A stretch of 64,000 nt of DNA from Candidatus Poribacteria bacterium (GCA_003635315.1 PYJD01000023.1:134502-198501); one strand, 5' to 3'. Shown: positions 4,054 through 62,635, counted from the first letter of the stretch. Numbers and translations are program-made. The notes: generated from the sequence alone by a model not told the origin.

Positions 4054-5487
4054 TTGTCTAAAGAAAAAATCGGAATCCAGAAGGAAGAATTACTTCGAAA
4101 ACTACCTGCAATCGAAAAACTCCTGACACAACCTGAAATCATAAAAATAGTCGAATCGTATTCCAGATCGCTGGTTACGGACATATTGCGTTCTATCGTT
4201 TCAGATTTTAGATCGCAGATATTAGATGGTAATACTGAGATTAATATTCCTGACCCTGATGAATTCCCAGAATTAGTAATTCAACATCTTGAGTATAAAT
4301 TAAAGCCACCTATCCGGACTGTAATAAATGCTACTGGAACTGTAACACACACGAATCTGGGACGATCATTACTACCAAAATCTGTATGTGATAACATTCT
4401 CGATGCTGCACAGAATTATGTTAATTTAGAATACGACTTAGAAACAGGAACAAGGGGGCATAGAGATAGATTAACTGAACCTTTACTTCAAGAATTAACA
4501 GGATGTGAAGCTTCTACTGTAGTCAATAACAATGCTGCTGCAGTTCTTATTTCACTGAACACGCTTGCTCAAGGGAAAGAGGTTATTGTTTCACGAGGTG
4601 AACTGATTGAAATTGGGGGGGCATTCCGAATACCTGATGTAATGGCAGCAAGTGGTGCAATTCTTAGAGAGGTAGGGACGACCAATAGAACACATCTACG
4701 TGATTATGAAGATGCAATCAATGAGAATACTTCACTATTTCTCAAAGTTCATCCCAGCAACTATAAGATTCTCGGATTTACTTCAACACCAGATATGCAG
4801 GAGTTAGCACAACTTGGTAAAAAACATAACATATCTATAATGGAAGATTTGGGTAGTGGAGCATTAGTGGATCTATCGAATTACGGGCTTCCTTACGAAC
4901 CTGTTGTAGCAGATAGGATCAAAGCCGGAGTGGATTTAGTTACCTTTAGTGGAGACAAATTGTTAGGAGGTCCACAAGCTGGAATAATTGCTGGTCAATC
5001 AGAGATGATACAACGGATACGAAAGAATCCTTTGATGCGAGCATTACGAGTAGACAAATTAACAATTGCAGCCCTCTCAACCACATTACAGAATTATCTA
5101 TATTTAGATAACCATATAACGGATGATTTTCCAATGTTACAACGATATAGCCGTACTGTAGAGGAATTATATGCCTTTGCTGAAACTGTTTCTGATAGAT
5201 TACAGAACGTTTTTCAAGATAAAATCTCAATTAATATAACTGAAACAAAATCACAAATTGGGAGTGGATCACTTCCTGAAGAAACATTAGATAGTGTTGC
5301 TGTGGTGTTAACCCCGATGGTAATTTCTGTAGAAAAACTATCGGAGTTATTTCGACATGCAAGTATTCCGGTGATAGGACGAATTGAGGATAATCAGCTA
5401 TACTTTGATATCAGAACGTTATATGATGATGAAATAGATTGTTTAATCCAAACCAGTAATGAGATTTCATCAAGAATGAATGTATGA
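4054..5487 (+). CDS. selA: L-seryl-tRNA(Sec) selenium transferase (selenocysteine synthase)
   Basis: 477 aa, TTG start with AGGAAGAG RBS 4 nt upstream. It has the SelA-length PLP fold and the conserved FSGDKLLGGPQAGII lysine motif. Confidence 0.88.
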   Translation: MSKEKIGIQKEELLRKLPAIEKLLTQPEIIKIVESYSRSLVTDILRSIVSDFRSQILDGNTEINIPDPDEFPELVIQHLEYKLKPPIRTVINATGTVTHTNLGRSLLPKSVCDNILDAAQNYVNLEYDLETGTRGHRDRLTEPLLQELTGCEASTVVNNNAAAVLISLNTLAQGKEVIVSRGELIEIGGAFRIPDVMAASGAILREVGTTNRTHLRDYEDAINENTSLFLKVHPSNYKILGFTSTPDMQELAQLGKKHNISIMEDLGSGALVDLSNYGLPYEPVVADRIKAGVDLVTFSGDKLLGGPQAGIIAGQSEMIQRIRKNPLMRALRVDKLTIAALSTTLQNYLYLDNHITDDFPMLQRYSRTVEELYAFAETVSDRLQNVFQDKISINITETKSQIGSGSLPEETLDSVAVVLTPMVISVEKLSELFRHASIPVIGRIEDNQLYFDIRTLYDDEIDCLIQTSNEISSRMNV

Positions 5488-6319
5488 CACTAAAATCCAA
5501 ACAATTTCTATAATTGTTATATCAATATGTATGATATCTGCCTGTAGAGATTCCTTTAATCAAACATCAATAGATGGTGAGTATCCTGAGAGTATAATCT
5601 CAACAATAGATGGTAGTCAGATGAGGTTAATTCCTTCTGGAGTATTTGAGATGGGCAATTCGTACCCTGATATCGGAGATGATGATGAGTTACCATTACA
5701 TACTGTTTCTCTTGATGCTTTTTATATTGATATCTACGAAGTCACGAATGCACACTATCAAAAGTTTGTAATAGCAACCGGGTATCCCCCACCACCTTTA
5801 TGGCACGATCCAAAGTTTAATCAACCTGATACGCCTGTTGTCAATGTTTCGTGGAACGATGCTGTCGCCTACGCACACTGGGCAAAAAAACGCTTACCAA
5901 CTGAAGCAGAATGGGAATATGCTGCAAGAGGGGGACAGATTGGGAAGGTATATCCTAATTCTAACCTACTCACACATGATGATGCGAATTTTGGTGGTGT
6001 TGATGGGATAGATATTTGGAAATGGACATCACCTGTGGGTAGTTTTCCACCAAATGACTACGGTCTATATGATATGGTCGGTAATGTTTGGGAGTGGTGT
6101 TTTGATGAGTATAATGGCGATTTTTACGGCTTTTCACCAGAACACAATCCAAGATTTGGCAGGAGTATTACTCCTGAGAACGAGAATTTCAGGATCTTAC
6201 GCGGTGGGGCTTGGGGTGGAAGTAAAGACGATCTCAGGGTGTCTGATCGATGGTATCATCTTAGTTCTGGTAGTACTATCGGTTTCAGGTGTGTTAAGGA
6301 TATTGATACTCAGAAATGA
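5480..6319 (+). CDS. FGE-sulfatase (SUMF1/EgtB/PvdO, DUF323) domain lipoprotein. It lacks the catalytic Cys pair of a true formylglycine-generating enzyme.
   Basis: Lipobox ...MISAC. Motifs YEVTNAHYQKF, RLPTEAEWEYAARGG, GNVWEWCFDEY, RGGAWG and a GFRC tail are present. The LCHxxYC copper-Cys motif is absent. It overlaps selA by 8 nt. Confidence 0.8.
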   Translation: MYDTKIQTISIIVISICMISACRDSFNQTSIDGEYPESIISTIDGSQMRLIPSGVFEMGNSYPDIGDDDELPLHTVSLDAFYIDIYEVTNAHYQKFVIATGYPPPPLWHDPKFNQPDTPVVNVSWNDAVAYAHWAKKRLPTEAEWEYAARGGQIGKVYPNSNLLTHDDANFGGVDGIDIWKWTSPVGSFPPNDYGLYDMVGNVWEWCFDEYNGDFYGFSPEHNPRFGRSITPENENFRILRGGAWGGSKDDLRVSDRWYHLSSGSTIGFRCVKDIDTQK

Positions 6320-40032: not shown

Positions 40033-40812
40033 ATGAAATACAATATAAATAAAAGAAAGTGTTTTGCTTACATAATCGGTTTGTCTATCTTTATGTTCTC
40101 GGTCTCAATCTTCACTGGAATAGTAAATGCTGAAGAGCTTGTTTTACATTTGTCATTTGATGAGCTTAATGGAAAGGTATCCAAAGATACATCTAAATTT
40201 CGAAATGATGTAACCTTCACAGGATCACCTAAACTTGTCGACGGTAAATTTGGTAAAGCAATTGATTTTGATGGGAAAACTCATGGAGAAGTTCCTGATC
40301 ATTCCAGTATTGATATTGTTGATGGAATTACAATAGAATTCTGGGCAAAATTAAGAGCTGGGGCTGATGTCCAAACTGGTGTTGAAAAAGGTCCCGCATG
40401 GGGTGCCGGTTTATATACACTCGCTGCCTTCTATCGTGGTGGTTCTATTTTGCAATTCTTTGATTTGCCAGATAACTGTGATGATGAAAATGTTGGCGGA
40501 AGTATACTTGATAATACTTGGCATTTTATGGCTGGTACATGGGACGGTAATACCATCAAGCTTTATATTGATGGTGTTTTAGATAAAGAATTAGAGTGTA
40601 AAGGTGAACTTATTCCAAACAATGGAGCATTATATATCGGTGCAAGGGGTGGAAAAGAACGGTACGTCACCGGGGCACTTGATGAAATTAAGATGTATAA
40701 CTATGCTCTAACTGAGGATGAGTTACTTACGGATATGGACAATCCATTACTTTTAAACGTAGAACCAAAAGGAAAACTCACAACTACCTGGGCACGGCTT
40801 AAGGCGAAATAA
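40033..40812 (+). CDS. Secreted concanavalin-A-like lectin/glucanase (LamG-type) domain protein ending in TTTWARLKAK
   Basis: Signal peptide MKYNINKRKCFAYIIGLSIFMFSVSIFTGIVNA. LamG pattern LVLHLSFDE...GKFGKAIDFDG...ITIEFWAKL...NTWHFMAGTWDGNTIKLYIDGV. Shared C-terminal motif. Confidence 0.65.
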   Translation: MKYNINKRKCFAYIIGLSIFMFSVSIFTGIVNAEELVLHLSFDELNGKVSKDTSKFRNDVTFTGSPKLVDGKFGKAIDFDGKTHGEVPDHSSIDIVDGITIEFWAKLRAGADVQTGVEKGPAWGAGLYTLAAFYRGGSILQFFDLPDNCDDENVGGSILDNTWHFMAGTWDGNTIKLYIDGVLDKELECKGELIPNNGALYIGARGGKERYVTGALDEIKMYNYALTEDELLTDMDNPLLLNVEPKGKLTTTWARLKAK

Positions 40813-47507: not shown

Positions 47508-47508
47508 T

Positions 47509-48249
47509 ATGTTAACTGACAAGCAGGATGCTTATGGACACCTCATTTACGATTACTTGAATGGAGAGCAAGTCCTTGAAATCGTTGAACGAGATGACGG
47601 TTACATTACCACCAGTCGGATGGGACCACTCACCTATTTTGCAGAATATCATGACTGGGAAGAACATCATAAACTTGCTATGAACTATACTACTGGACGG
47701 ATCTTAGATATCGGCTGCGGAGCAGGAAGACACGCTCTCTATCTTCAAAAAAATGGACATGATGTCTTGGCAACCGACTATTCTCCATTGGCAATTCAAG
47801 TATGTAAAAAGCGAGATGTCAAACACGCCATAGTTGTACCGATTACCCAACTTAATAACAAACTCGGTACATTCAACACGATAACCATGCTGGGAAACAA
47901 TTTCGGTTTATTTGCCAGTTATAAGAGAGCAAAATGGTTATTGAAGCGATTCGCAGGTATGACAACAGAAGATGGTAAGATCGTCGCGGAGACGATGGAC
48001 CCGTACCAAACAGAAAACCCTACACATCTCGCATATCATCAATTTAATAGAGAACGGGACAGAATGAGCGGACAACTGAGAATTCGTATACGTTACAAAC
48101 AATATGCTACGCCATGGTTCGACTACCTATTCGTCTCAAAATCTGAACTGGAAGATATCTTGGTCGGCACCAGTTGGACAGTTGAACGCTATATTGACTC
48201 AGACAAACCCAGTTATATTGCAATTTTGCAAAAACGAGTTAATTTATGA
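47509..48249 (+). CDS. Class I SAM-dependent methyltransferase
   Basis: [32 protein letters not shown] motif I. Its start is 2 nt after the sulfatase stop. Confidence 0.75.
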
Positions 48250-49139
48250 CACCTCTTAAATTCGCTTTTATTACAGATACACATCTCTATCCAAATGCAC
48301 CACAAAACTTTGCAGGCGGTTTGCAGCAACAGATAAATAGTCTTGCTCTTTATGAGAGAGTTATTCAACAGTTAAATGAGTTTGATCCTGCATTCGTCGT
48401 TCACGGTGGGGATATTGTTTGTGGAGGAAATAGTTTTGCTATGACCTCTGAAGAATATGTGGAAGCTCTCAATACCGCTCGTTCACTCGGTGAAAAACTA
48501 AATGCTCCAATTTATTATATACCCGGAAATCACGATCTTGATCCGGAAACCGGTTCTAAAGCCTCATATCTTGAATGTTTCGGGATAAACAATAGAGGTT
48601 CAACAAGTTTCGTAAAAGACAACATTAGGTTTATTTTGATGGATGCACAAGAAGTTCCTGAAGATCTGACACACGGCTATGTCAGTACAAATCAACTTGC
48701 CTGGGTAGAACGCGAACTGAAAATGGCAACTGATTATGGAGAAGAAATCATCATCTTTACTCACCAACTGCCATTTCCGAGTGTGGAATTTCAAGGGATG
48801 GGTTCAAGAATTGCAAATTCTGCAGAAATCCTTGAAATCGTTGCACCTTTTGAACAACAAATTTTAGCCTTCTTTTGTGGACACCTTCATCTAAATCGTG
48901 TATATCGAGAACAAGGTTTATTATGTATCATAACATCCGGTGTTATATGCTATCCCATGATGTGGCGTCAGGTTCTTGTATATCCTGATAGAGTTGAGGT
49001 TTTGTCTGTTCCTATTGATTTACCTGAGGTATATGCGGATTCTGAAGCTGTTAATCCAGATAATAACCCATATTTGTCTGGTAGACCAAGAGATCTGGAA
49101 ATTACGATTCCAAGAATAAAAAGTCAAGATAACAATTAG
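48246..49139 (+). CDS. Calcineurin-like metallophosphoesterase
   Basis: [24 protein letters not shown] and GHLH motifs; 4-nt overlap with the upstream methyltransferase. Confidence 0.75.
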
Positions 49140-49200: not shown

Positions 49201-50193
49201 ATGATTAAAGTACAAAATCTATATAAAAACTACGGTCCTTTTCAAGCGTTGAATGATATATCCTTTTCTGTAGAAAAAGGACAAATTGTAGGGTTTCTTG
49301 GTCCAAATGGTGCGGGAAAGACTACCACAATGCGGATACTTACATGTTTTATGCCTGCAAGTAGTGGAAAGGTTACAGTTGCTGGATATGATGTCTTTAA
49401 AGAATCTAAAGAGGTAAGAAATCGAATCGGTTACCTACCAGAAAACATACCTCTATACACCGAAATGACCGTTACAAAGTATTTATCATATATGGCAAAA
49501 ATACGAAATGTACCGAGAAAGCATCTTAAAGATCGATTAGATTCGGTTATAGAATCATGTGGATTAATTGACCGACGAAATCAGATTATTGGTCAACTCT
49601 CCCGGGGTTACAGACAACGAGTCGGTTTGGCTCAAGCATTAGTCCATGACCCAGAGGTCTTAATCCTTGACGAACCTACTTCCGGGTTAGATCCACGGCA
49701 AATTGTAGAAATACGAGATCTAATTAAAGGTCTTGGGAAAGATCGAACTATACTCTTTAGTACCCACATATTACCTGAAGCAAGCAACACTTGTGAACGG
49801 TTATTGGTTATTAGTAAAGGACAAATTACGGGTGATATAGAACTATCAAATGGACGGGCAATCACAGATACTCCATCAAAAACTGATGGGAATATCTCCT
49901 CTGATCAGGATCAGGGGATTGAGAAGACATTAACACTCGTTGTTACTGGGGCAGCTAATGACGAAATATTAACCACTCTTAGAAATATACCTGATGTGAT
50001 TAATGTAGAATATTCAATTGAACAATTAAGAGATACATATAATATACACTATAGTACTGATAAAGATATTCGTTCAGAAATCGCAAAAACTGTAGTTGAA
50101 CATAACTGGAATTTATTGGAAATGTATACTAACGAAATGAGTTTAGAAGAACTATTCCTATCTCTTACAGCTGAAAATATAACCAATGAATAG
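49201..50193 (+). CDS. ABC-2-type transporter ATP-binding protein (orphan, no adjacent permease)
   Basis: GFLGPNGAGKTTTMRIL; signature variant LSRGYRQRVGLAQAL; LILDEPTSGLDP. Confidence 0.85.
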   Translation: MIKVQNLYKNYGPFQALNDISFSVEKGQIVGFLGPNGAGKTTTMRILTCFMPASSGKVTVAGYDVFKESKEVRNRIGYLPENIPLYTEMTVTKYLSYMAKIRNVPRKHLKDRLDSVIESCGLIDRRNQIIGQLSRGYRQRVGLAQALVHDPEVLILDEPTSGLDPRQIVEIRDLIKGLGKDRTILFSTHILPEASNTCERLLVISKGQITGDIELSNGRAITDTPSKTDGNISSDQDQGIEKTLTLVVTGAANDEILTTLRNIPDVINVEYSIEQLRDTYNIHYSTDKDIRSEIAKTVVEHNWNLLEMYTNEMSLEELFLSLTAENITNE

Positions 50194-50408: not shown

Positions 50409-51704
50409 ATGCACTGTAATACATCATTGACACATATGCAGTTTAGTCGCAATACTATATTCTTTTTTATCTGCTGCATATCAATGTTTATTATCAGTTG
50501 TGGCGATGATGGATCATTACCATTAACTGAAAGCACAGAACCTATTGATGACATTTTTACGGTAAGTGAGTGGGATAAAATTAAAAGTCTCTCTCCACTA
50601 CCAGATAACCCACCACCCAGTCCAACAAACCGAGTTGCGGATAACGCTAATGCTTCGAAGTTAGGACAGATGTTTTTCTTTGATGAAAGATTCTCAAAAG
50701 ACGCAACTATTGCTTGTGCCACATGCCACTCTCCATTTCATGGATTTGCTGATGTTGAAGCAACATCATTAGGAAACGGAAGAGGGACCAGAAATGCTCC
50801 CACATTATTAAATGCTGCATACAACAATTGGCAATTTTGGGATGGACGTGCTGATTCACTTTGGGCACAAACCATTTTTGCATTAGAAGGTGAGAAGGAA
50901 CAAGCTGGCAATCGCCTACAGTTTTCACATTTAGTCTATAAACATTATAAGGAAGATTATGAATCAGTTTTCGGATCTTTACCAGATTTAACTGATACAA
51001 ATCGATTTCCTAAAAATGGTAAACCAGGAGATTATCAGTTTGATAATATGTCAGATGCTGATAAAATTGCAATCAATTCAATACTCGCAAATATAGGTAA
51101 AGCAATCGAAGCATACGAAAGACTATTAATTAGTCGAAATTCCCCTTTTGATCAATATGTAGCCGGGGATGTAAACGCAATCGGAATTCAGGCTAAACAG
51201 GGATTAAAGGTTTTTATTAGAGAAGGGAGTTGTATTGAGTGTCATAACAGTCCAACTCTTACTGACAATAAATTCCACAATGTCGGTCTTCCACAAGGGA
51301 ATCTCCCCTTAGATTATGGTAGATCTGATGGGATCAAACAACTGTTAGAAAACCCATTTAATGGACTTGGTATCTATAGTGATAATACGGAGATACCTAA
51401 ACTTATACTTGACTCATTAGCAGGATCAATTGAAACTGATGGTCAATTTAAAACACCATCATTAAGAAACGTAGCTCTAACTGCACCCTACATGCATACT
51501 GGAGATTTTCCTACATTGAAATCCATTCTGAGTTTCAATAGAAATGATGTTACAACAGCAGAATATGTGGGAATAGCTGAATCTACACGCAACTCAGGTA
51601 TTCTAACACAACAAGAGATGAGTGATTTAGTCGAATTTCTACAAACATTAACGGGTGAATTACCACCAGAACATCTCCTACAAAAGCCTAAACTACCAGA
51701 ATAA
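50409..51704 (+). CDS. Di-haem cytochrome c peroxidase (CCP/MauG family) lipoprotein
   Basis: Lipobox FIISCG. Haem 1 CATCHSPFHGF...GTRNAPTLLNAAYN..QFWDGRA; haem 2 GSCIECHNSP; conserved FKTPSLRNVALTAPYMHTG. Confidence 0.85.
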   Translation: MHCNTSLTHMQFSRNTIFFFICCISMFIISCGDDGSLPLTESTEPIDDIFTVSEWDKIKSLSPLPDNPPPSPTNRVADNANASKLGQMFFFDERFSKDATIACATCHSPFHGFADVEATSLGNGRGTRNAPTLLNAAYNNWQFWDGRADSLWAQTIFALEGEKEQAGNRLQFSHLVYKHYKEDYESVFGSLPDLTDTNRFPKNGKPGDYQFDNMSDADKIAINSILANIGKAIEAYERLLISRNSPFDQYVAGDVNAIGIQAKQGLKVFIREGSCIECHNSPTLTDNKFHNVGLPQGNLPLDYGRSDGIKQLLENPFNGLGIYSDNTEIPKLILDSLAGSIETDGQFKTPSLRNVALTAPYMHTGDFPTLKSILSFNRNDVTTAEYVGIAESTRNSGILTQQEMSDLVEFLQTLTGELPPEHLLQKPKLPE

Positions 51705-51864
51705 AGATAGGTATTGTTGTACAATTAGATGTCATTAATATACATCTGTTTATATAAGTCTTAGACACCAATTATACTCTTGATCATAGTTATACCTAAA
51801 CGCCAATCTTATCTGTATTATCCAACATTTCTTTGTAATATACAGATCTATTTAGACTAATGAT

Positions 51865-52716
51865 ATGAGACATTCAATTTTTTCTTACAGCTATTTTATA
51901 ACTATCTTCATATTGTATATAGTCTTAATTGGTTGTAACAGTGAAGATCCTACAGACTCACTCATTGAGACTAATTTGTTGAATGAAGATACAATCATCG
52001 ACACAGATGAAATGGTCTTCATACCAGCAGGTGAAGTAACTATTGGTACTAATGAGAAAACTGAGGATACCTTTGGGAATGAAATTGATCAACAAACTGT
52101 TTTCGTTAAATCATTCTATATTGATAAGTATGAAGTCACCAATGGTCAGTACAAAGAATTCCTCATAGATACAGGACACAGAAAACCAAAGTTTTGGGAT
52201 AATCCAAATCTTAATGCACAGAATCAACCTGTTGTTGGTGTTAACTGGGAAGATGCTGAATCCTATGCAAATTGGGCTGGTAAGAGATTACCAACCGATA
52301 TTGAATGGGAAAAAGCTGCAAGAGGTATGGATGGTCGTCTGTATCCATGGGGGAATGCGTTCAATACATCATTTGGAAACTTTGATGACAATAGTAAAAT
52401 GGATGGAAAATTAGATGGGTACGCTTTACAGACTGCTGCTATTGGTAGTTATCCTAAAGGTGTAAGTCCATTTGGAATACATGATATGGCAGGAAATGTA
52501 TGGGAATGGGTAGAAGGTACTATTGATAGTGGTTTCAAGATACCAATTCCTGAAAATGGTAAGAACATTATGACAAATGGTAGAGTCTACACGATTAGAG
52601 GTGGATCTTGGACGAATGGTCATGGTGACACCCGAACCACAGTTTTTTATATATATCCTGCACAATGTAGTGATCATAGTAGTTCTGTTGGATTTCGTTG
52701 TGCTAAATCACTATAA
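51865..52716 (+). CDS. FGE-sulfatase (DUF323) domain lipoprotein lacking the FGE catalytic Cys pair
   Basis: Lipobox LIGCNSE. YEVTNGQYKEF, RLPTDIEWEKAARG, GNVWEWVEG, RGGSW and a GFRCAKS tail. No LCHxxYC motif. Confidence 0.8.
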   Translation: MRHSIFSYSYFITIFILYIVLIGCNSEDPTDSLIETNLLNEDTIIDTDEMVFIPAGEVTIGTNEKTEDTFGNEIDQQTVFVKSFYIDKYEVTNGQYKEFLIDTGHRKPKFWDNPNLNAQNQPVVGVNWEDAESYANWAGKRLPTDIEWEKAARGMDGRLYPWGNAFNTSFGNFDDNSKMDGKLDGYALQTAAIGSYPKGVSPFGIHDMAGNVWEWVEGTIDSGFKIPIPENGKNIMTNGRVYTIRGGSWTNGHGDTRTTVFYIYPAQCSDHSSSVGFRCAKSL

Positions 52717-52774
52717 CTTATCATAACTAACAACGGTATATATATATAATTCTGTGCTATTCTGAGTTTAGATT

Positions 52775-53686
52775 ATGAAAGAAAATAGTTCAAAGTCTTT
52801 TCTCTTTTTAACTATATGCTGTATGGTTATTATTCTCTTTAATAATGGATGTACTGAAAAGAATCTTAAAGAGGATGAAAATCAGATAACAATGGGTAGT
52901 ATAGAATTGACTGAGAAACCTGAAGAAAAAATAGAAATGGAAGAAACGATAGAAATTCCTGATGGCATGGTATATGTTCCTGCAGGAGACTTCATTATGG
53001 GTAGTGATCCAGATGTTGATCCTCATACAGATCAACTCGATGAAATACCACAACATAAGGTATATTTGGATGCCTTTTTTATTGACAAGTATGAAGTATC
53101 GAATGATGACTATACCAAGTTTGTTAAAGCTACAGGACACCGAAATTCCATTTTTTGGGACAATCCGAAATTCAATCATCCTGATGCACCTGTCGTCGGG
53201 GTAACATGGGGAGACGCTGTTGCTTATGCAGAATGGGTCGGAAAACGACTTCCAACAGAAGCAGAATGGGAAAAAGCAGCAAGAGGAACTGATGCACGCA
53301 TTTGGCCGTGGGGTAATGAATTTGATCCGAAGAAATGCAATTTTGATGATGAAGGAAAATTTGATGGACATCTCGATGGGTTTGCAACTGCTGCCCCTGT
53401 AGATAGTTTTCATAATGGGGCAAGTCCATATGGCGCGCTTAACATGGTTGGTAATGTAGCGGAATGGGTGGCTGACTGGTTTGACACGGATTATTATATT
53501 GTCAGTCCAAGAGAAAATCCAAAAGGACCAAAAAATAGTGGTATGGGGAAGAAATCATGGCGTGGAGCAAGTTGGTTTGCTGGCGAAGATCAAGTCCGTT
53601 GTGCATTTAGAGAATATGATGACATTGTCGCAAGCGGACAGATTCTCGGGTTTCGTTGTGCGAAAGATGTACCACAAGAAGAATAA
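52775..53686 (+). CDS. FGE-sulfatase (DUF323) domain lipoprotein lacking the FGE catalytic Cys pair
   Basis: Lipobox FNNGCTEK. YEVSNDDYTKF, RLPTEAEWEKAARG, GNVAEWVADW, RGASW and a GFRCAKD tail. Confidence 0.8.
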   Translation: MKENSSKSFLFLTICCMVIILFNNGCTEKNLKEDENQITMGSIELTEKPEEKIEMEETIEIPDGMVYVPAGDFIMGSDPDVDPHTDQLDEIPQHKVYLDAFFIDKYEVSNDDYTKFVKATGHRNSIFWDNPKFNHPDAPVVGVTWGDAVAYAEWVGKRLPTEAEWEKAARGTDARIWPWGNEFDPKKCNFDDEGKFDGHLDGFATAAPVDSFHNGASPYGALNMVGNVAEWVADWFDTDYYIVSPRENPKGPKNSGMGKKSWRGASWFAGEDQVRCAFREYDDIVASGQILGFRCAKDVPQEE

Positions 53687-53735
53687 CCATATCAAATTGT
53701 TGGATGAATACTAATTATAGCATGTATTCATTAGA

Positions 53736-55001
53736 ATGATGAAGAAACCATTAACTTCTATCGGGATAATTAATTGCTTATTATTAATCATTATCGCATG
53801 TGGTGAAGATACAACCTTCAATAATGACATCGATAATGAGTTTGAAGTAGATATTTTCACAGAACGTGAATGGGCAGTAATACAACGTTTATCTCCATTG
53901 CCTATTGAACCACCTCCAAGTCATACAAATCGATTTGCTGATAATCCTGATGCAGCAATATTGGGTCAGAAGTTCTTCTTTGATGAACGATTCTCAAAGG
54001 ATGGAACAGTAGCATGTTCGACTTGCCACTCCCCATTTTACGGGTTCGCAGATGCAGAAGCGACTTCATTAGGGGCTGGTAGAGGAACAAGAAATGCACC
54101 AACACTATTAAATGTAGCCTACAATAAGTGGCAATTCTGGGATGGTCGGGCAGATACACTATGGTCCCAAGCTCTTATCGCATTAGAAGGGGATACAGAA
54201 CAAGCAGGGACACGACTACAGTTTGCACATCTTATAAACGAATATTATAAGTCAGAATATATCAAGGTTTTCGGTGAATTTCCTAATTTAACAGATACAA
54301 ATAAATTCCCAAAGGATGGAAAACCGGGAGATCAACAATATGACAATATGGCAGAGAAAGATAAGGTTTCGATTAACACTGTCTTCGCTAATATCGGTAA
54401 GGCAATTGAAGCCTATGAACGACTCTTGATCAGTAGGAATGCTCCCTTCGACAAGTATGTGGCAGGTGATAGAAATGCAATTGGAGAAGAAGCTAAACGG
54501 GGATTAAAAACCTTCATTGGAAAGGGTGTCTGTATTCTATGTCATGATAATCCTAATTTCACTGACAATGAGTTCCACAATCTTGGTGTACCACAGGGAC
54601 AACTTTCTACGGATACAGGACGGTATGATGGTATAAAACAATTAATAGATAATCCTTTCAATGGAGGGGGAATTTATAGTGATGAACCTACTGTCTCTCA
54701 ACGAATTATTGATTTTCTTGAACCCACATCATTACATCAAGGGCAATTTAAGACCCCAACACTAAGAAACGTTGCACTTACTGCTCCCTATTTTCATACG
54801 GGTGGATTCCCAACGTTGGCATCAGTCATTGAATTTAACAATGCTGGGGGTGTTCCGTCAGGTTTTGTTGGTACCAGAGAGGGAACACTTGAACCCTTAC
54901 ATCTTACCGTACAGGAAGCAGAAGAATTAGTTGAATTCCTTCTAACACTTACTGGTGAATTACCAGCTGAGTATCTATTAAGAAAACCCATCCTTCCATA
55001 G
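53736..55001 (+). CDS. Di-haem cytochrome c peroxidase (CCP/MauG family) lipoprotein, paralogue of 50409..51704
   Basis: Lipobox IIIACGED; CSTCHSPFYGF and GVCILCHDNP haem motifs; FKTPTLRNVALTAPYFHTG. About 60% identical to the first CCP over the catalytic core. Confidence 0.85.
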   Translation: MMKKPLTSIGIINCLLLIIIACGEDTTFNNDIDNEFEVDIFTEREWAVIQRLSPLPIEPPPSHTNRFADNPDAAILGQKFFFDERFSKDGTVACSTCHSPFYGFADAEATSLGAGRGTRNAPTLLNVAYNKWQFWDGRADTLWSQALIALEGDTEQAGTRLQFAHLINEYYKSEYIKVFGEFPNLTDTNKFPKDGKPGDQQYDNMAEKDKVSINTVFANIGKAIEAYERLLISRNAPFDKYVAGDRNAIGEEAKRGLKTFIGKGVCILCHDNPNFTDNEFHNLGVPQGQLSTDTGRYDGIKQLIDNPFNGGGIYSDEPTVSQRIIDFLEPTSLHQGQFKTPTLRNVALTAPYFHTGGFPTLASVIEFNNAGGVPSGFVGTREGTLEPLHLTVQEAEELVEFLLTLTGELPAEYLLRKPILP

Positions 55002-55385
55002 ATTATTTCATACCATGAAATCCACAGAATTATTACTGAACTTACACTTTTATTCACTGCCTAATAACAATCTAATGTAGAGTATTTAGTGATTACTATA
55101 GTTAGTAATTATTTGACTTTAATTACATAAATTGATACAATTATATACAGGTGTTGATAGATTATTTCTAAAATATTCTTAGATTTTCTGTCAGTAGTCA
55201 GATATAGAAATATCGAAGATCTTAGTATCAAATTCGATATTTTAGCGTTTTCTGCGGATTAACCCTAAATATCAGACTTACCGCATAAACAAATTCTGAG
55301 TTACGAATAACTATCTTTGTAACGCTCTATATTAACCTAAGGAATTAAAATATTAAATTCATTTTCATATAATAAGGAGTGTAAA

Positions 55386-56204
55386 ATGAAAAAAGTGATA
55401 TTTACTATGGCTATGGTAATAGGGTATTCTTTAACTCTATTAACTTCTCCAATGCCAAGTATTGCATTACCACTTGGAGAAGTAGCCATATTTACTGAAC
55501 AATCCGGTTGGATCGCTCAGAATGCAGCACAGAGAGAAGGGGAAGTATTGGCGGACCTGCTAAAGAAACCTACTGATGTTGTTACTCTGACAGACAAAGA
55601 AATTGGTGATTGGGCTAAAGAACGTACAGATAACGGTATAGCTGATATTATCGTTACCTTCGGTTGGTTCCCAACAACCCTATACCCACCCGGTAATCAA
55701 AAGCCAGATGGTTCCGTGGCTGAAGATTTCCTTGAAGGGGGAAATGTTTTCCTTAACACTGCTGACTATATCTTTTATGTCACACAAGGTGGTGGTGCCA
55801 ATGGTGAACAAGGTTTGAAAAACATGATGGACATTAATGCTGACATGTGGTCAGGTGGTTCTGGGATCAAACCTACTGCTGATGGGAAAAAATATACACC
55901 AAGTCTGGGTAATTTTACTTCAGAACGTACATTCAAAGCAGCACAGATTACTGATCCATGGGAAGTTGAAGTCACCTTAGGCGATACTGGATCCGGTAAT
56001 ATCGATCCAGCAATCGTCCATGATACTGAAACCGGTGGACGTATAGGGATTGCTTTTCAAGAACCAAATAACGCTGGACTCCCACGAGGTAAGGTCTTAG
56101 CAGAGATGATTGATAACTTCCTTTTCGAAGTTCTTGGCCCTCAAGCTGTTGATCCGCAACAGAAAGCTACAACCACATGGGGACTTTTAAAATCTGATTT
56201 TTAA
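55386..56204 (+). CDS. Secreted protein of unknown function, 272 aa, ending in ATTTWGLLKSDF
   Basis: ATAAGGAGTG RBS; signal peptide MKKVIFTMAMVIGYSLTLLTSPMPSIA. Conserved blocks FGWFPTTLYPPGN and NTADYIFYVTQGGGANGEQGLK. No family recognised. Confidence 0.5.
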   Translation: MKKVIFTMAMVIGYSLTLLTSPMPSIALPLGEVAIFTEQSGWIAQNAAQREGEVLADLLKKPTDVVTLTDKEIGDWAKERTDNGIADIIVTFGWFPTTLYPPGNQKPDGSVAEDFLEGGNVFLNTADYIFYVTQGGGANGEQGLKNMMDINADMWSGGSGIKPTADGKKYTPSLGNFTSERTFKAAQITDPWEVEVTLGDTGSGNIDPAIVHDTETGGRIGIAFQEPNNAGLPRGKVLAEMIDNFLFEVLGPQAVDPQQKATTTWGLLKSDF

Positions 56205-56280
56205 TTGGAATTATTAACGCTATTATGTAATAATAATGATTCAATATATCCTTGTATTATAACTCTCAAAGGAGAATTTA

Positions 56281-57099
56281 ATGAACTTGAGAAAATTGAT
56301 ATTCGCATTTACCATCCTTTTTGTTTTCGTCGCTACTACATCCAGTTGGGCAGGACTTGGCGATGTTGCTATCTTCAGTGAAGCAACAGGATGGATATCA
56401 AAAGATAATGCTGACATTCAGCGCGCTATTGTATTTGATAATTTAAAGGACGAAGTGGCTTCTGTTGGTGATGTTGTCTATAAAACCGATGAAGAAATTG
56501 GTCCTTGGGCAGAAGATAGAATTGATGATGGGAAAGCTGACATTATCATCGTTTTTGGTTGGTTCCCAACTACTCTATATACACCTGGGAATTCACAGGT
56601 TGATGATTCAATCGCAGAACGTTTCCTATACGGTGGGAATATCATTCTAAATTGTGCTGACTATGCTTTCTATGTTACACAAGGTGGTGGTGCAAATGGT
56701 GAGAATGGTTTGAAAACCATCATTAATATCAATGCTGATATGTGGGGTGGTGGTACGGCTATTACACCTACTGATGATGGAGAGAAATATACACCTTCCT
56801 TGGTGAATTTTACTTCTGAACGTCCTTTTAAAGCAGACCAAATTGTTGATCCATGGAGTGTTGAAGCAAAATTCGGTGATAACGGCGATACCTTCTTTGA
56901 TCCAGGTATCATTAAGTTGAATGATAGCAGTGGACGTGTTGGTATCTGTATGCAAGAACCAAATAGAGGCGACTTGCCACGCGGTCAAGTCTTAATTGAA
57001 ATGATCAGTTTCATTTCAATGCAAGATGATGTTGCTACTCCGGTTGAACCAAATGGTAAAACTTCTACGACATGGGGTACACTTAAAGCTTCTTGGTAA
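56281..57099 (+). CDS. Tandem paralogue of 55386..56204 (272 aa, secreted), ending in TSTTWGTLKASW
   Basis: AAAGGAGAA RBS; signal peptide MNLRKLIFAFTILFVFVATTSSWA; ~55% identical to the upstream paralogue, including FGWFPTTLYTPGN and NCADYAFYVTQGGGANGENGLK. Confidence 0.5.
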   Translation: MNLRKLIFAFTILFVFVATTSSWAGLGDVAIFSEATGWISKDNADIQRAIVFDNLKDEVASVGDVVYKTDEEIGPWAEDRIDDGKADIIIVFGWFPTTLYTPGNSQVDDSIAERFLYGGNIILNCADYAFYVTQGGGANGENGLKTIININADMWGGGTAITPTDDGEKYTPSLVNFTSERPFKADQIVDPWSVEAKFGDNGDTFFDPGIIKLNDSSGRVGICMQEPNRGDLPRGQVLIEMISFISMQDDVATPVEPNGKTSTTWGTLKASW

Positions 57100-57133
57100 T
57101 CTCAATCGGTTCTACAAGGCAAATCAATTAAAA

Positions 57134-57178
57134 GGAAAAGCGTATCTTCCAAATGGATGATACGCTTTTCCTTTATAC
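57134..57178 (+). terminator. Rho-independent terminator after the paralogue pair
   Basis: Perfect 13-bp stem ggaaaagcgtatc / gatacgcttttcc with a 12-nt loop, followed by tttatac. Confidence 0.6.
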
Positions 57179-57662
57179 TATTAGAGTTATTATACTATTT
57201 CAAATTGATTGTATGACATTATGTTACACCTTCCTCTGTAGTAGGGAACTCCAATTCCCGATCTTCTTTCAATGGTCAATGGAAAACTATTATTATAAAT
57301 GGTATAACGACATATCGAAACGTAACCTCTAATGAAAAATGACAATAATTAGCCATTATTCTGAAACGAGAACTTCCAACTAACCTCATAAAGAAGCACA
57401 TACTGAAAGTTTTCGCTACAAGACACCAACTTATGATATAGATTGAAAATAAATTGAAGAAATTTAAATGATCACACATCACATATTTGAAATAGAGTTG
57501 ACAGAATAGGAACACTATGTTACAATAACATATAGAGAATAAATATAATACTTATGCTAATATATAATATTAGATAAAGCATTAAATTTACGAATCTATA
57601 AACAGTTCTACAAATCACAATAATATAACACATACTAATTCCGCAATTAAGGTTTCTAATAA

Positions 57663-58065
57663 GAGAAATAAATGATGATTATCTACAAAAACGATCCTAA
57701 ATGCAAAAAAATATTTATGTCAAAAAACCGACATTATTTGCCGGTAGGAATTGTCAAAATTCGCAAGAACATTAATAGAACAAAATCACACTTTTTGCAA
57801 ATTCTTATAAAGTTAATTCAAAGTGGAGTAAAGTCAGTCTATGACAGAGGTTAGAGGGGTAATTTACACCAATTTCAATGACACAGAATGTGTCAAAAAG
57901 TGTAACTTTTTTCAGTTTTTCAACGAATTGAAAAACACAACATTTTCACGATTTATCATCAGGGAATTTAGGATTAAAGGTCTGTTTTTGCACCTTATTA
58001 GTTGTCCATATATTAGGATTAAAAGTCAAAACTACGACTATGAATTCTAATACTATATAAGAAAA
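57663..58065 (+). repeat. Copy D of the dispersed non-coding element (A/D subfamily), ending ~80 bp upstream of the FAH gene
   Basis: ~88% identical to 14171-14580. It includes gacacagaatgtgtcaaaaagtgtaacttttttcagtttttc and cagggaatttaggattaaa(g/a)gtctgtttttgcacct. Confidence 0.6.
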
Positions 58066-59944: not shown

Positions 59945-62635
59945 ATGAAACATATTCGTAGATTACCTCTTTATATTTTCCTCTTATTATTACTAAATAG
60001 TTCATATCTATTTAGTTTTGGTGAACCAACTCTCTTCTATATACTAAATGTATTAATCCATATTGGTCTTGGAAGTCTTCTCATACTACCCTTCTGCTAT
60101 TTTCTTCTAAAAAGAATACGAACACTGTCAGTACTTGGAAGAGTAGGGGTAGTTGCACTTACAATAGGTGTTGTTAGTGGTGGATATTTGATGGTAGTAG
60201 GAGCATCAACACCGTATCGTTGGCTTCTCATCACTCATATTTTTACCATTTCAACTGGTAGTTTTCTATTTAGTCTACATATTCTTAAATACACAAATCA
60301 TCTTACTGGTAAGTTCCAAAAATTATATATCAGTGTGTTGGTTGGTGTCCTTTTCTTTCCTATTGGTGCTAAATTATCCCAGCATTTCTTTCCAAATAGG
60401 ACATATCTTGTCGAAAATCCTGCATTTCCACCAAGTAGTATGTATGAGGAAGGGGGAGGTACAACAGGACACTTCTTTCCCGCATCTGTAGAGACAGATA
60501 CGGGAAATCTCATACCAACAGACTTTTTTCTTACTTCAGAAACATGTGCCTCAAAAGGTTGTCATCCAGATATTTACAAACAGTGGAGTGAATCCGCACA
60601 TCATTTTTCGTCCTTTAACAACCAATGGTATCGTAAATCCATTATTTATATGCAGGAAGTTAATGGAATTCAACCATCAAAATGGTGTGGGGGTTGTCAT
60701 GATCCTGCCATTCTACTCAATGGAGTTATGGATCAACCTATTCGTGAGAATCTACATACCCCTGCAGCTCAAGCTGGACTGGCATGTACTGCATGCCATT
60801 CTATTGATCAGGTTAAAGATACAATGGGTAATAGTGGATATGTAATAAAATATCCACCACTTCACAATCTTGCGTCAAGCAATAATCGTTTGATACGTAA
60901 AATGCACAATTACCTAATCAAACTTGACCCAGAACCACATAGAAATAGCTTCATAAAACCATTCCATCGGGAGAACACTGCTGAATTCTGCTCAACATGT
61001 CACAAGGCACATCTGGATTTTCCAGTCAATAATTACAGATGGGTTCGAGGATTCAATGACTATGATCAATGGCAGAAAAGTGGTGTATCCCATCAAGGGG
61101 CTCTATCATTCTACTATCCAGAAACAGCTAAAAAATGTGCTGATTGCCATATGCCTTTAGTAGATTCAAAGGATGCGGGAAACATTAAAGGCAAGGTACA
61201 TAGCCACAGATTTCCAGCTGCAAATTCTGCCCTACCATATGTAAATAAACACGATGAACAGCTAAAAACGGTCACCGAATTTCTACAAAATGATGTGATT
61301 ACACTGGATATGTTTGCAAATGGTTCCCCAATACCTGAGGATGGTACTTCAGTTTACAGGAATGAGAGTAATCTAATTGAGGTAGTTGTTCGTACAAGAG
61401 GAGTAGGACATAATTTTCCCACTGGAACAATTGATGCATTTGATATCTGGCTTGAATTGAAGATAGTTGATGAAAACGGTAAGATTGTTTTCTGGAATGG
61501 CAGGATTGCTGAACCTGATGGAAATGGTCCTGTTGATCCAAGCGCACATTTTTACCGGAGTTATATGCTTGATGAACATGCTAACCTAATCAATAAACGT
61601 AATGTATGGGCAATGCGAAAAGTGTTATATTCAAATACTATCCCTCCCGGTGCTGCTGATACTGTTCGTTATCGATTAGAAATTCCATCAGACTGTGGGA
61701 ATACCCTTAGTGTAGAAGCAAAACTAAATTACCGAAAATTTAACTGGTGGCATACACAGTGGGCTTATGCTGGGGTTCGTGATCCAGAAGATACGGATTT
61801 TAAGGTTGATAAAGGTTATGACAATGGTAAATGGATTTGGACGGGGGATACTAATGATGTTGCAGGTAAAATCAAATCTATACCAAACCTACCCATCATT
61901 GTTATGGCTGAAGCAAATACGCAACTACATGTTGAATCCGAGAAGGGGAATTCAGATATCACAGAGCCAACACAGAATCAATTTAGTACGACATATAATT
62001 TGCGTGAACGTTGGAATGATTATGGAATAGGTTTGTTTCTACAAGGAGATTTAAGAAAAGCGGTATCTGTTTTCCTAAAAGTAACTGAAATTGAACCTGG
62101 TTATCTTGATGGATGGGTTAATGTTGCCAGATGTCGTATAAAAGAAGGAGATATGCCTGGGGCTGAAACAATGTTAAATCATGCATTAGAATTACAGAAA
62201 TCACTATCACCCACAGATCCGAATCGGGCAAAGGTTCATTATTTTTATGGACTCGTACAAGAATCTTACGGTAATTATGATTTATCGATACAACATCTTG
62301 AGCAAGCCATAGACCAATTTCCTCGAGACACGAGAGTTCGGAACCAATTAGGACGTTTGCATTTTCTAAAGAGAAATTATAATATCGCTATATCACATTT
62401 TGAAAAAAGTTTGGAGGTTGATCCGGAAGATTTAGATGCACACTATAATATGATGCGATCTTACCGTGCACTCAAAAATCCATCTATGGCAGCAAAGTAT
62501 CATAAGCTTTATTTACGATTCAAAGAAGATGAATCAGTTGATGATATAACGGGTGTTGCACGTCGTGCAGATACACATGCAAATCTTGAACGACAACCAA
62601 TTCATGAACATGTGAATAGTTATAAATCAGAATAG
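59945..62635 (+). CDS. Membrane-anchored multihaem c-type cytochrome (five haem-binding motifs) fused to C-terminal TPR repeats
   Basis: N-terminal ~150 aa carry about four TM helices. Motifs CASKGCH (CX4CH), CGGCHD, CTACHS, CSTCHK and CADCHM. C-terminal 250 aa are TPR-like (WNDYGIGLFLQGDLRKAVSVFLKV...ALELQKS...). Confidence 0.7.
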   Translation: MKHIRRLPLYIFLLLLLNSSYLFSFGEPTLFYILNVLIHIGLGSLLILPFCYFLLKRIRTLSVLGRVGVVALTIGVVSGGYLMVVGASTPYRWLLITHIFTISTGSFLFSLHILKYTNHLTGKFQKLYISVLVGVLFFPIGAKLSQHFFPNRTYLVENPAFPPSSMYEEGGGTTGHFFPASVETDTGNLIPTDFFLTSETCASKGCHPDIYKQWSESAHHFSSFNNQWYRKSIIYMQEVNGIQPSKWCGGCHDPAILLNGVMDQPIRENLHTPAAQAGLACTACHSIDQVKDTMGNSGYVIKYPPLHNLASSNNRLIRKMHNYLIKLDPEPHRNSFIKPFHRENTAEFCSTCHKAHLDFPVNNYRWVRGFNDYDQWQKSGVSHQGALSFYYPETAKKCADCHMPLVDSKDAGNIKGKVHSHRFPAANSALPYVNKHDEQLKTVTEFLQNDVITLDMFANGSPIPEDGTSVYRNESNLIEVVVRTRGVGHNFPTGTIDAFDIWLELKIVDENGKIVFWNGRIAEPDGNGPVDPSAHFYRSYMLDEHANLINKRNVWAMRKVLYSNTIPPGAADTVRYRLEIPSDCGNTLSVEAKLNYRKFNWWHTQWAYAGVRDPEDTDFKVDKGYDNGKWIWTGDTNDVAGKIKSIPNLPIIVMAEANTQLHVESEKGNSDITEPTQNQFSTTYNLRERWNDYGIGLFLQGDLRKAVSVFLKVTEIEPGYLDGWVNVARCRIKEGDMPGAETMLNHALELQKSLSPTDPNRAKVHYFYGLVQESYGNYDLSIQHLEQAIDQFPRDTRVRNQLGRLHFLKRNYNIAISHFEKSLEVDPEDLDAHYNMMRSYRALKNPSMAAKYHKLYLRFKEDESVDDITGVARRADTHANLERQPIHEHVNSYKSE

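What the first reader, a model, noticed from the sequence alone, without database searches (positions are those of the whole stretch)
50409..57099. Mirrored lipoprotein cassette: di-haem CCP, two FGE-domain proteins, di-haem CCP, followed by two paralogous secreted proteins of unknown function
Four consecutive same-strand lipoprotein genes form a palindromic gene order: CCP/MauG-like di-haem peroxidase, two FGE-sulfatase-domain proteins, then a second CCP paralogue. Short intergenic gaps (50-160 bp) suggest one operon. Two tandem paralogous secreted proteins follow immediately (55386..57099) and a clean terminator closes the block at 57134. All three FGE-domain proteins in the window, including 5480..6319, keep the FGE fold motifs (RLPTEAEWE, GNVWEW, RGGSW, GFRC) but lack the LCHxxYC copper-binding Cys pair that canonical O2-dependent formylglycine-generating enzymes need. 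So they are probably not sulfatase maturases, even though a Cys-type sulfatase (CSPSR) sits at 46158. Pairing a haem peroxidase / MauG-like protein-oxidising enzyme with non-canonical FGE-fold lipoproteins is a plausible periplasmic peroxide-dependent protein- or small-molecule-modifying module. I do not recognise it as a described system.
Basis: partly seen in the sequence, partly recalled or inferred. Interest (0 to 1): 0.8.

Follow-up and report, generated by a model that had tools for sequence, protein, structure and literature searches.

The report
Poribacterial di-haem and FGE-like lipoprotein block
A sponge-symbiont-type (Poribacteria) genome carries a phylum-restricted block of membrane-anchored proteins, an unusual two-haem peroxide enzyme next to two catalytically disabled "sulfatase-maturase-like" proteins; the block is real and undescribed, but its mirror symmetry is a recent gene duplication and its function is still inferred.

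Summary
The annotations hold: two CCP_MauG di-haem lipoproteins, two FGE-fold lipoproteins without the catalytic Cys pair, two paralogous secreted proteins and a strong terminator hairpin.

The "mirror" is not a design feature. The first CCP occurs only in this lineage and one near-identical contig.

The recurrent unit in Candidatus Poribacteria is FGE1-FGE2-CCP, usually followed by unkA-unkB. FGE1-FGE2 lies directly upstream of the CCP in 23 of 42 species-level loci, in two different genomic contexts. In 17 species the orthologous CCP stands alone, and several loci show other partial combinations. The few loci checked outside the phylum (four) show no CCP-FGE adjacency.

The unk pair is a separate unit. 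It has a ThuA/GH42M-like (GATase1-like) fold, occurs as a tandem pair without CCP or FGE in other metagenome contigs (taxon unknown), and is fused to lectin domains in other proteins.

The CCPs belong to the MauG/MbnH lineage, but Asn replaces the Tyr axial ligand in all 120 clusters examined. That Tyr is needed for bis-Fe(IV) chemistry in MauG and BthA.

The most likely reading is a peroxide-using envelope module with non-catalytic FGE-fold binding partners. Simple neighbourhood of unrelated genes remains a serious rival. Interest is moderate.

The parts
50409..51704 (+). CCP1: extra di-haem CCP_MauG lipoprotein, a lineage-specific paralogue. Haem motifs CATCH and CIECH; Asn377 at the axial-ligand position.
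   Evidence: It is 64% identical to CCP2. It is found only in the window and L047, with no other relative above 69% identity. dN/dS is 0.18.
51865..52716 (+). FGE1: FGE-fold lipoprotein without the catalytic Cys pair. It has an invariant family-specific loop, YIYPAQCSDHSSSVGFRC, where the FGE catalytic loop would be.
   Evidence: Pfam PF03781, E 2e-56. The SUMF1 alignment shows Asn and Thr at C336 and C341. Conservation was read from 27 orthologues.
52775..53686 (+). FGE2: second FGE-fold lipoprotein. It is the closest of the three in the window to true FGEs, but has Ala at C336 and C341 deleted.
   Evidence: Pfam E 4e-58. PDB SUMF1 hit E 1e-44 with alignment. Orthologues of 67% identity or more are only poribacterial.
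53736..55001 (+). CCP2: the conserved di-haem lipoprotein of the block, of the MauG/MbnH lineage. The peroxidatic-site Glu155, inter-haem Trp135 and the residues aligned to the Ca-site positions of bCCP are kept. The distal-His loop is absent. Asn368 replaces the Met/Tyr axial ligand.
   Evidence: Orthologous and syntenic in 42 poribacterial loci.
55386..56204 (+). unkA: Sec-secreted protein with a ThuA/GH42M-like (GATase1-like) fold. It has no conserved Cys, and its conserved C-terminal tail is ...K-x-T-T-T-W-G-x-L-K.
56281..57099 (+). unkB: paralogue of unkA (53% identity). The tandem pair is the usual form of this family.
   Evidence: tandem pairs in L053, L056, L058, L059, L062, L066 and others.
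57131..57175 (+). Terminator-like hairpin closing unkB.
   Evidence: dG -28.5 kcal/mol, z -8.9. Conserved in L046, L047 and L048.
49201..50193 (+). Context only: GldA-like ABC-2 ATPase immediately upstream. Its median gap to FGE1 in relatives is 8 bp.
   Evidence: NCBIfam TIGR03522, 328.6 bits against a cut-off of 402.6. Gap statistics.

Best explanation
This is a Poribacteria-restricted, dispensable envelope module.

Its core is a membrane-anchored di-haem enzyme descended from the MauG/MbnH branch of the bacterial cytochrome c peroxidase superfamily. The peroxide-reactive (five-coordinate) haem pocket is intact, so the enzyme most likely binds and cleaves H2O2. This is inferred from conserved residues. 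The Tyr or Met axial ligand of the second haem is replaced by an invariant Asn. The enzyme therefore probably cannot stabilise the MauG-type bis-Fe(IV) state. It more likely works as a peroxidase, or does oxidation at or near the first haem. This too is inferred.

The two FGE-fold lipoproteins encoded directly upstream have lost the copper-binding Cys pair. They most likely act as non-catalytic binding or adaptor proteins in the same compartment, as the FGE fold does in SUMF2, PvdO, GldK/PorK and the Tsi3 immunity proteins. They would hold or present a peptide, protein or small-molecule substrate to the haem enzyme. This step is inferred and is the weakest.

The first CCP gene is a lineage-specific extra paralogue kept under selection.

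The two downstream secreted proteins are a separate transcription unit. They belong to a glycan-associated ThuA/GH42M-like domain family and sit there by poribacterial synteny, not as part of the redox module.
For: Block conservation:
- FGE1-FGE2-CCP is present in 23 of 42 poribacterial species-level loci.
- It is also present in 4 of 5 loci found by anchoring on FGE2.
- The five genes stay together in two unrelated genomic contexts.
- Median gaps are 57 bp (FGE1-FGE2) and 58 bp (FGE2-CCP), against 483 bp for CCP-unkA.

Same compartment: all four carry lipobox-type signal peptides.

Selection: dN/dS is 0.08-0.30 for all genes, including CCP1.

Haem enzyme:
- There are two CxxCH motifs.
- W135, E155 and Q156 are invariant. 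N120, T349 and P351, which align with the Ca-site positions of bCCP, are also invariant.
- The distal-His loop GHGWQKG of bCCP is GAG--RG here.
- The C-terminal region is most similar to MbnH 6e1c (E 3e-10).
- Asn368 aligns with MbnH Tyr, MauG residue 294 and the bCCP Met.
- Asn occupies this position in 120 of 120 clusters, whereas planctomycete homologues have Tyr.
- Y294H MauG and Y463H BthA lose bis-Fe(IV), and Y463H BthA still reduces H2O2 (PMC6405878).

FGE proteins:
- The Cys pair is absent.
- There is precedent for non-catalytic FGE-fold proteins (bioRxiv 10.1101/2021.05.21.445229).

unk pair as an independent unit.
Against: - 17 poribacterial species keep the orthologous CCP at the same position with no FGE1, FGE2 or unk genes. 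The enzyme therefore does not need them.
- Every partial combination exists: FGE-FGE-CCP only (L012, L035), CCP-unk-unk only (L016), a CCP remnant plus the unk pair in the closest genome (L046), and FGE1 plus an FGE2::unkA chimera with CCP deleted (L085).
- The support for 'moves as a block' is effectively one translocation event.
- Short gaps and a shared strand are weak evidence in this genome. The upstream cytoplasmic sulfatase, methyltransferase, phosphoesterase and ABC ATPase genes are packed just as tightly.
- FGE-domain genes are common in these genomes.
- No CCP-FGE fusion was seen in the hit lists.
- No adjacency was seen outside the phylum, though the sample is small.
- No experiment or expression data are available.
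Confidence: 0.45

Rival explanations
1. There is no functional coupling. The CCP is a stand-alone periplasmic peroxide-detoxifying lipoprotein. The two FGE-like lipoprotein genes and the two unk genes are unrelated envelope genes that were inserted beside it in an FGE-rich genome and have been inherited by synteny.
For: - The CCP stands alone between the ABC ATPase and the FAA-hydrolase gene in 14 clade-C species, and in L021, L023 and L044.
- All partial combinations occur.
- The whole co-directional array from the sulfatase to the CCP is heterogeneous yet tightly packed.
- FGE-domain genes are scattered through these genomes.
- The adjacency is not seen outside Poribacteria.
Against: - The five genes remain contiguous in a second, unrelated context whose flanks both differ.
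- FGE1/FGE2 orthologues were not found apart from a CCP, except where the CCP had been deleted.
- Without a Met or Tyr ligand on the second haem, the enzyme is not a textbook electron-accepting bCCP.
Confidence: 0.33
2. This is a MauG/MbnH-type maturation system. The di-haem enzyme uses H2O2 to modify a residue in FGE1 or FGE2 post-translationally, for example in the invariant YIYPAQCSDHSSS loop of FGE1. That would create a protein-derived cofactor or metal site, as MauG does for methylamine dehydrogenase and MbnH for MbnP.
For: - The enzyme belongs to the MauG/MbnH lineage. NCBIfam best hits are MauG and MbnH, and the C-terminal region is closest to MbnH.
- The peroxidatic haem has no distal-His switch.
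- The partner genes are adjacent, as with mbnP/mbnH.
- FGE1 has an invariant Cys/His/Tyr-rich loop exactly where the FGE catalytic loop lies.
Against: - The Tyr ligand needed for bis-Fe(IV) and long-range hole-hopping in MauG and BthA is Asn in all 120 clusters (PMC6405878).
- NCBIfam scores are far below the family cut-offs: 162 against 444, and 160 against 363.
- The CCP persists without FGE1 or FGE2 in 17 species.
Confidence: 0.12
3. The FGE-like lipoproteins are GldJ/GldK-type gliding or T9SS-related envelope components. They would work with the adjacent GldA-like ABC ATPase and with GldG-like (GATase1-fold) unk proteins. The CCP would be incidental.
For: - The upstream ATPase hits GldA best (328.6 bits) and is 8 bp from FGE1 in relatives.
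- GldK is among the top NCBIfam hits for FGE2.
- Some unk-domain proteins carry T9SS C-terminal domains.
Against: - All scores are below the curated cut-offs: GldA 329 against 403, GldK 117 against 350, GldJ 38 against 458.
- FGE2 is much closer to true FGEs (E 1e-44) than to PorK (8e-16).
- Context-2 blocks lack the ATPase.
- No gldL/M/N-type Pfam family is listed in six annotated loci.
- There is no permease gene at the locus.
Confidence: 0.05

Closest known systems
MbnH (PDB 6e1c) and MauG (PDB 3l4m): H2O2-using di-haem enzymes that oxidise a partner protein
   Same: - Two c-type haems, and an inter-haem Trp.
- No distal-His switch on the peroxidatic haem.
- MbnH-like C-terminal segment (xGG plus an insertion).
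- Encoded beside candidate partner proteins.
   Different: - The Tyr axial ligand is Asn (N368 in CCP2, N377 in CCP1) in every poribacterial member.
- Scores are far below the MauG and MbnH family cut-offs.
- The neighbours are FGE-fold lipoproteins, not MADH subunits or MbnP.
- The enzyme is itself a lipoprotein.
Canonical bacterial di-haem cytochrome c peroxidase (for example Paracoccus 2c1u, Pseudomonas 1eb7)
   Same: - Best overall PDB sequence matches (E 1e-40).
- The catalytic Glu, the Trp and the residues aligned to the Ca-site positions are conserved.
   Different: - The Met ligand of the electron-transfer haem is absent (Asn).
- The distal His-71 loop is absent and two residues shorter.
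SUMF2/pFGE, PvdO and Tsi3: FGE-fold proteins without the catalytic cysteines
   Same: - FGE fold with the Cu-binding Cys pair lost.
- Extracytoplasmic location.
- Presumed binding or accessory role.
   Different: - FGE1 and FGE2 are lipoproteins paired in tandem next to a di-haem enzyme.
- Scores against PvdO are low (75-77 bits against a cut-off of 500).
- There is no pyoverdine, T6SS or sulfatase-maturation context.
ThuA-like proteins and the GH42 middle domain (GATase1-like fold), for unkA/unkB
   Different: - No Pfam hit, and 8-15% identity to the fold matches.
- No conserved Cys nucleophile.
- A small family of 313 clusters at 50% identity.
- A distinctive C-terminal tail.

Membership tests
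Canonical bacterial cytochrome c peroxidase (bCCP) | Two CxxCH haem motifs, an inter-haem Trp, a catalytic Glu and a Ca2+ site | tested here: met
   CxxCH at 94 and 266 in CCP2, and at 103 and 275 in CCP1. W135, E155 and, at the aligned Ca-site positions, N120, T349 and P351 are invariant.
Canonical bacterial cytochrome c peroxidase (bCCP) | His/Met ligation of the electron-transfer haem (Met 14 residues after the PYFH His) | tested here: not met
   Asn368 aligns with the Met of 2c1u. Asn is present in 120 of 120 clusters.
Canonical bacterial cytochrome c peroxidase (bCCP) | Distal His (His71-type GHG loop) on the peroxidatic haem | tested here: not met
   GAG--RG aligns against GHGWQKG.
MauG / MbnH / BthA-type di-haem enzymes | His/Tyr ligation of the six-coordinate haem, required for bis-Fe(IV) | tested here: not met
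   Asn aligns with the MbnH Tyr and with MauG position 294. The functional requirement is from PMC6405878.
MauG / MbnH / BthA-type di-haem enzymes | Score above the curated family cut-off (TIGR03791 MauG, TIGR04039 MbnH) | tested here: not met
   161.8 against 443.85, and 159.7 against 362.85 bits.
MauG / MbnH / BthA-type di-haem enzymes | Formation of a bis-Fe(IV) state and oxidation of a partner protein | not testable with these tools
   This needs spectroscopy and biochemistry.
Formylglycine-generating enzyme (aerobic, Cu-dependent) | FGE-sulfatase fold (PF03781) | tested here: met
   E 2e-56 and 4e-58. Best PDB hits are SUMF1.
Formylglycine-generating enzyme (aerobic, Cu-dependent) | Two catalytic, Cu-binding cysteines (human C336 and C341) | tested here: not met
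   FGE1 has Asn and Thr. FGE2 has Ala and a deletion. FGE0 has none.
GldJ / GldK / PorK T9SS-gliding lipoproteins | Score above the NCBIfam cut-off, and gldL/M/N (porL/M/N) neighbours | tested here: not met
   Scores are 33.6-116.9 bits against cut-offs of 350-458. No GldL/M/N-type Pfam family is listed in L001, L002, L047, L048, L090 or L091. The rest of the genome was not searched.
PvdO (dihydropyoverdine oxidation) | Score above the NF051459 cut-off, and a pyoverdine gene context | tested here: not met
   75-77 bits against 500. No pvd genes lie nearby.
ThuA-like / class I glutamine amidotransferase-like (unkA, unkB) | Flavodoxin-like GATase1 fold | tested here: met
ThuA-like / class I glutamine amidotransferase-like (unkA, unkB) | Catalytic Cys nucleophile (amidotransferases), or a Pfam ThuA match | tested here: not met
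   There is no invariant Cys in 67 sequences, and unkA has no Cys at all. There is no Pfam hit.

The most novel reading that the evidence does not exclude
The poribacterial enzymes would be a new functional class derived from MauG/MbnH, in which the second haem has lost its protein axial ligand (Tyr to Asn). They would work as a two-part system with catalytic-Cys-less FGE-fold lipoproteins, which would bind and present a peptide, protein or small molecule for H2O2-driven oxidation at the outer face of the inner membrane. In effect the FGE substrate-binding scaffold would be re-used with a haem oxidant supplied in trans, in place of its own copper.
Probability: 0.15. Interest if true: 0.7.

Novelty: new variant of a known kind. 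Interest (0 to 1): 0.4.

Why it matters
- It would add a fourth ligation type (Asn, or none) to the bCCP/MauG superfamily. In that superfamily the identity of this one ligand is thought to decide between peroxide detoxification and protein-oxidising bis-Fe(IV) chemistry.
- It would give a first testable partner for one of the many orphan FGE-fold proteins that lack the catalytic cysteines. Such proteins are very abundant in Poribacteria and relatives and have no assigned role.
- The practical value is limited for now. The organisms are uncultured, the block is dispensable within the phylum, and nothing here shows what the substrate is.

Tried and rejected
- Exact-sequence look-up of the window's FGE2 found nothing on record.
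- The AlphaFold2 model of CCP2 from 50 close homologues was poor (pLDDT 51). It was not used for fold search.
- The afdb50 fold library was unavailable.
- An Rfam scan of the whole window found nothing.
- The simple terminator scan missed the hairpin at 57131, so it was folded directly.
- Literature searches for MauG with formylglycine, Poribacteria with cytochrome c peroxidase, and FGE-sulfatase with peroxidase found no description of this pairing. The BthA paper on the CCP_MauG superfamily network does not mention sulfatase or formylglycine.
- P0170, which matches both FGE2 and unkA, was considered as a 'Rosetta-stone' fusion. It was rejected because its locus shows a deletion of the CCP that joined the two genes.
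- Sulfatase maturation was rejected because of the missing Cys pair, and because the neighbouring sulfatase has no signal peptide.
- The idea that CCP1 is the ancestral 'stand-alone' CCP with the block inserted after it was rejected. CCP1 does not group with the stand-alone clade in the NJ tree.
- The extra unk-unk-FGE clusters in L018, L042 and L090 were considered as independent evidence for an FGE-unk link. All come from one clade and look like an old partial duplication. Elsewhere unk pairs lack FGE.

Full report
**What is there**

The region holds six co-directional genes exactly as described.
- Pfam assigns CCP_MauG to 50409-51704 (CCP1) and 53736-55001 (CCP2).
- Pfam assigns FGE-sulfatase to 51865-52716 (FGE1) and 52775-53686 (FGE2).
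- The proteins at 55386-56204 (unkA) and 56281-57099 (unkB) match nothing in Pfam or NCBIfam.
- Best database relatives are named Candidatus Poribacteria, and the window has about 37% G+C.
- Each CCP has two CxxCH motifs.
- CCP1, FGE1, FGE2 and CCP2 all have a hydrophobic leader ending in a lipobox-type Cys, and this is conserved in orthologues.
- unkA and unkB have ordinary Sec leaders.
- A 16-bp-stem hairpin (57131-57175, dG -28.5 kcal/mol, z -8.9) follows unkB and is conserved in relatives.
- All six genes are under purifying selection against close relatives, with dN/dS 0.08-0.30.

**The FGE-fold proteins are not FGEs**

- Aligned to human SUMF1, FGE1 has Asn and Thr at the catalytic C336 and C341 positions.
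- FGE2 has Ala at C336, and a three-residue deletion removes C341.
- The third FGE-domain gene (5480-6319) also lacks the pair.
- FGE2 is still far closer to true FGEs (E 1e-44) than to PorK/GldK (8e-16) or PvdO (1e-13).
- All NCBIfam hits (GldK, GldJ, EgtB, SenA, PvdO) are far below their cut-offs.
- FGE1 orthologues share an invariant loop, YIYPAQCSDHSSSVGFRC, where the FGE catalytic loop would be.
- The neighbouring Cys-type sulfatase (46158-47507) starts directly with its catalytic domain and has no signal peptide. Lipoprotein FGE-like proteins could not mature it.

**The mirror is not conserved, but a five-gene block is**

I fetched 44 species-level loci anchored on CCP2 from GTDB genomes and mapped all window genes onto them. 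Of these, 42 are poribacterial.

| Arrangement at the 42 poribacterial loci | Loci |
|---|---|
| FGE1-FGE2-CCP-unkA-unkB (one of them has a single unk gene) | 20 |
| FGE1-FGE2-CCP without unk genes (one contig is truncated) | 3 |
| CCP-unkA-unkB without FGE genes | 1 |
| CCP alone | 17 |
| 85-aa CCP remnant followed by unkA-unkB (L046, the closest genome) | 1 |

- None of these loci has a CCP upstream of FGE1.
- CCP1 turned up only in L047, a near-identical metagenome contig.
- L048 is about 90% identical and lacks CCP1.
- CCP1 is 64% identical to CCP2, has no other relative above 69%, and sits on its own long branch.
- The palindromic order is therefore a lineage-specific addition of a second, selected CCP paralogue.

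**Evidence for coupling of FGE1-FGE2-CCP**

- The block occurs in two different contexts.
  - Context 1 lies between the sulfatase-methyltransferase-phosphoesterase-ABC array and the FAA-hydrolase/SDR/multihaem-TPR genes.
  - Context 2 has entirely different flanks (L017-L024, L036, L042, L090, L091).
- Loci found by anchoring on FGE2 orthologues show a CCP next door in four of five cases. In the fifth (L085) the CCP has been deleted, which fused FGE2 to unkA.
- Median gaps are 57 and 58 bp inside FGE1-FGE2-CCP, against 483 bp between CCP and unkA.

**Evidence against coupling**

- Fourteen species of one clade, plus three others, keep the orthologous CCP at the context-1 position with no FGE or unk genes. 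No FGE2 orthologue cluster lists a contig of those lengths as its longest contig. This is a weak, indirect check.
- Every partial combination exists.
- The whole upstream array of unrelated cytoplasmic genes is packed just as tightly.
- Outside Poribacteria, two planctomycete CCP loci and two FGE loci (46% and 51% identical, one from Kuenenia) show no adjacency.

**What kind of di-haem enzyme**

- Overall, the best PDB matches are canonical peroxidases at E about 1e-40. MbnH scores 1e-25 and MauG 1e-15.
- NCBIfam ranks MauG and MbnH first, but far below their cut-offs.
- The catalytic Glu, the inter-haem Trp and the residues aligned to the Ca-site positions of bCCP are invariant. Peroxide activation at the first haem is therefore plausible.
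- The distal-His loop of switchable peroxidases is missing.
- The residue 14 positions after the PYFH histidine decides the family type:

| Protein | Residue at H+14 | Source |
|---|---|---|
| 2c1u and other bCCPs | Met | |
| MbnH | Tyr | |
| MauG | residue 294 (the matched chain 3orv has His there; I take it to be the Y294H variant) | |
| CCP1, CCP2 and all 120 poribacterial cluster representatives | Asn | |
| 33%-identical planctomycete homologues | Tyr | |

- The surrounding segment is most like MbnH (E 3e-10).
- Published work shows that changing this Tyr abolishes bis-Fe(IV) in MauG and BthA. Y463H BthA still reduces H2O2 (PMC6405878).
- This is thus a MauG/MbnH-derived subfamily that has probably given up the chemistry that makes MauG a long-range protein oxidant.

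**The downstream pair is a separate unit**

- There is no conserved Cys.
- In metagenome contigs the family occurs as tandem pairs with no CCP or FGE gene within up to 8 kb.
- An exhaustive profile search found only 313 clusters at 50% identity. Many are large proteins with one to eight copies of the domain. Nine of these were scanned, and they also carry LamG, F5/8-C, PA14, GH99, LRR or T9SS tail domains.
- This points to a surface, glycan-related role that is unrelated to the haem enzyme.

**Verdict**

These are non-canonical FGE-fold lipoproteins recurrently encoded beside an unusual di-haem enzyme, and I found no description of this pairing.
- The symmetry is incidental, and the module is phylum-restricted and dispensable.
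- The downstream pair does not belong to the module.
- The missing Tyr argues against a straightforward MauG-like mechanism.
- I rate functional coupling of FGE1/FGE2 with the CCP at about even odds. The specific mechanism remains an inference.

Noticed in passing
window 10960-11700, 40033-40812, 55386-56204, 56281-57099 (C-termini); also L086:8074-8925, L058:14688-15470, L044:19364-20146: Four otherwise unrelated secreted proteins in this window end in the same tail, roughly P-x-x-x-K-[LAT]-[ATS]-T-[ST]-W-[GA]-x-[IL]-K followed by 2-3 residues. Across the fetched loci, 97 unk-family ORFs and 11 other ORFs carry it. The others include single-domain LamG (Laminin_G_3) proteins. It looks like a shared C-terminal sorting or anchoring tag, and I could not match it to a named system.
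   Followed up: partly
window 57195-58065 and 14166-14572; palindrome at 2871-2887, 14388-14404, 39621-39637, 57879-57895: The unkB-to-FAA-hydrolase spacer carries about 870 bp of AT-rich DNA (28% G+C) that the close relative L047 lacks. Its last ~400 bp is 84% identical to another intergenic stretch of the window. A palindrome, TGACACAGAATGTGTCA, occurs four times against 0.03 expected. There is no Rfam match. It may be a mobile or regulatory non-coding element.
   Followed up: partly
L085:7001-8365 and L046:9983-10255: These are decay products of the block. L085 has an intact 454-aa chimeric ORF that joins the N-terminal two-thirds of FGE2 to unkA after deletion of the CCP, and it was seen on five contigs. 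L046, the genome closest to the window, has an 85-aa C-terminal CCP remnant directly after the ABC gene.
   Followed up: yes
L018:4436-8038, L042:13993-16603, L090:2124-4773: Context-2 genomes carry an extra, diverged unk-unk-FGE mini-cluster beside the block (34-49% identity to the block genes). It is probably an old partial duplication.
   Followed up: partly
window 59945-62635: An 896-aa protein with N-terminal membrane segments, a multihaem cytochrome region (Cytochrome_C554 and MtrC-like hits) and C-terminal TPR repeats. It is conserved downstream of the block in context-1 genomes.
   Followed up: no
window 4054-5487 and 5480-6319: The third Cys-pair-less FGE-fold lipoprotein gene overlaps the end of a selenocysteine synthase (SelA) gene by 8 bp and precedes an ABC ATPase. 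It illustrates how FGE-fold genes are scattered among unrelated genes in this genome.
   Followed up: no
window 46158-49139: A Cys-type sulfatase without a signal peptide is followed by a methyltransferase (1-bp gap) and a metallophosphoesterase (4-bp overlap). This array is conserved across Poribacteria. A cytoplasmic sulfatase in such a tight array is unusual and was not explored.
   Followed up: no
L045:9797-12268: A planctomycete MbnH-like di-haem protein (Tyr ligand present) extends to 823 aa, with a long C-terminal region that has repetitive, beta-helix-like sequence. Its domain content was not checked.
   Followed up: no
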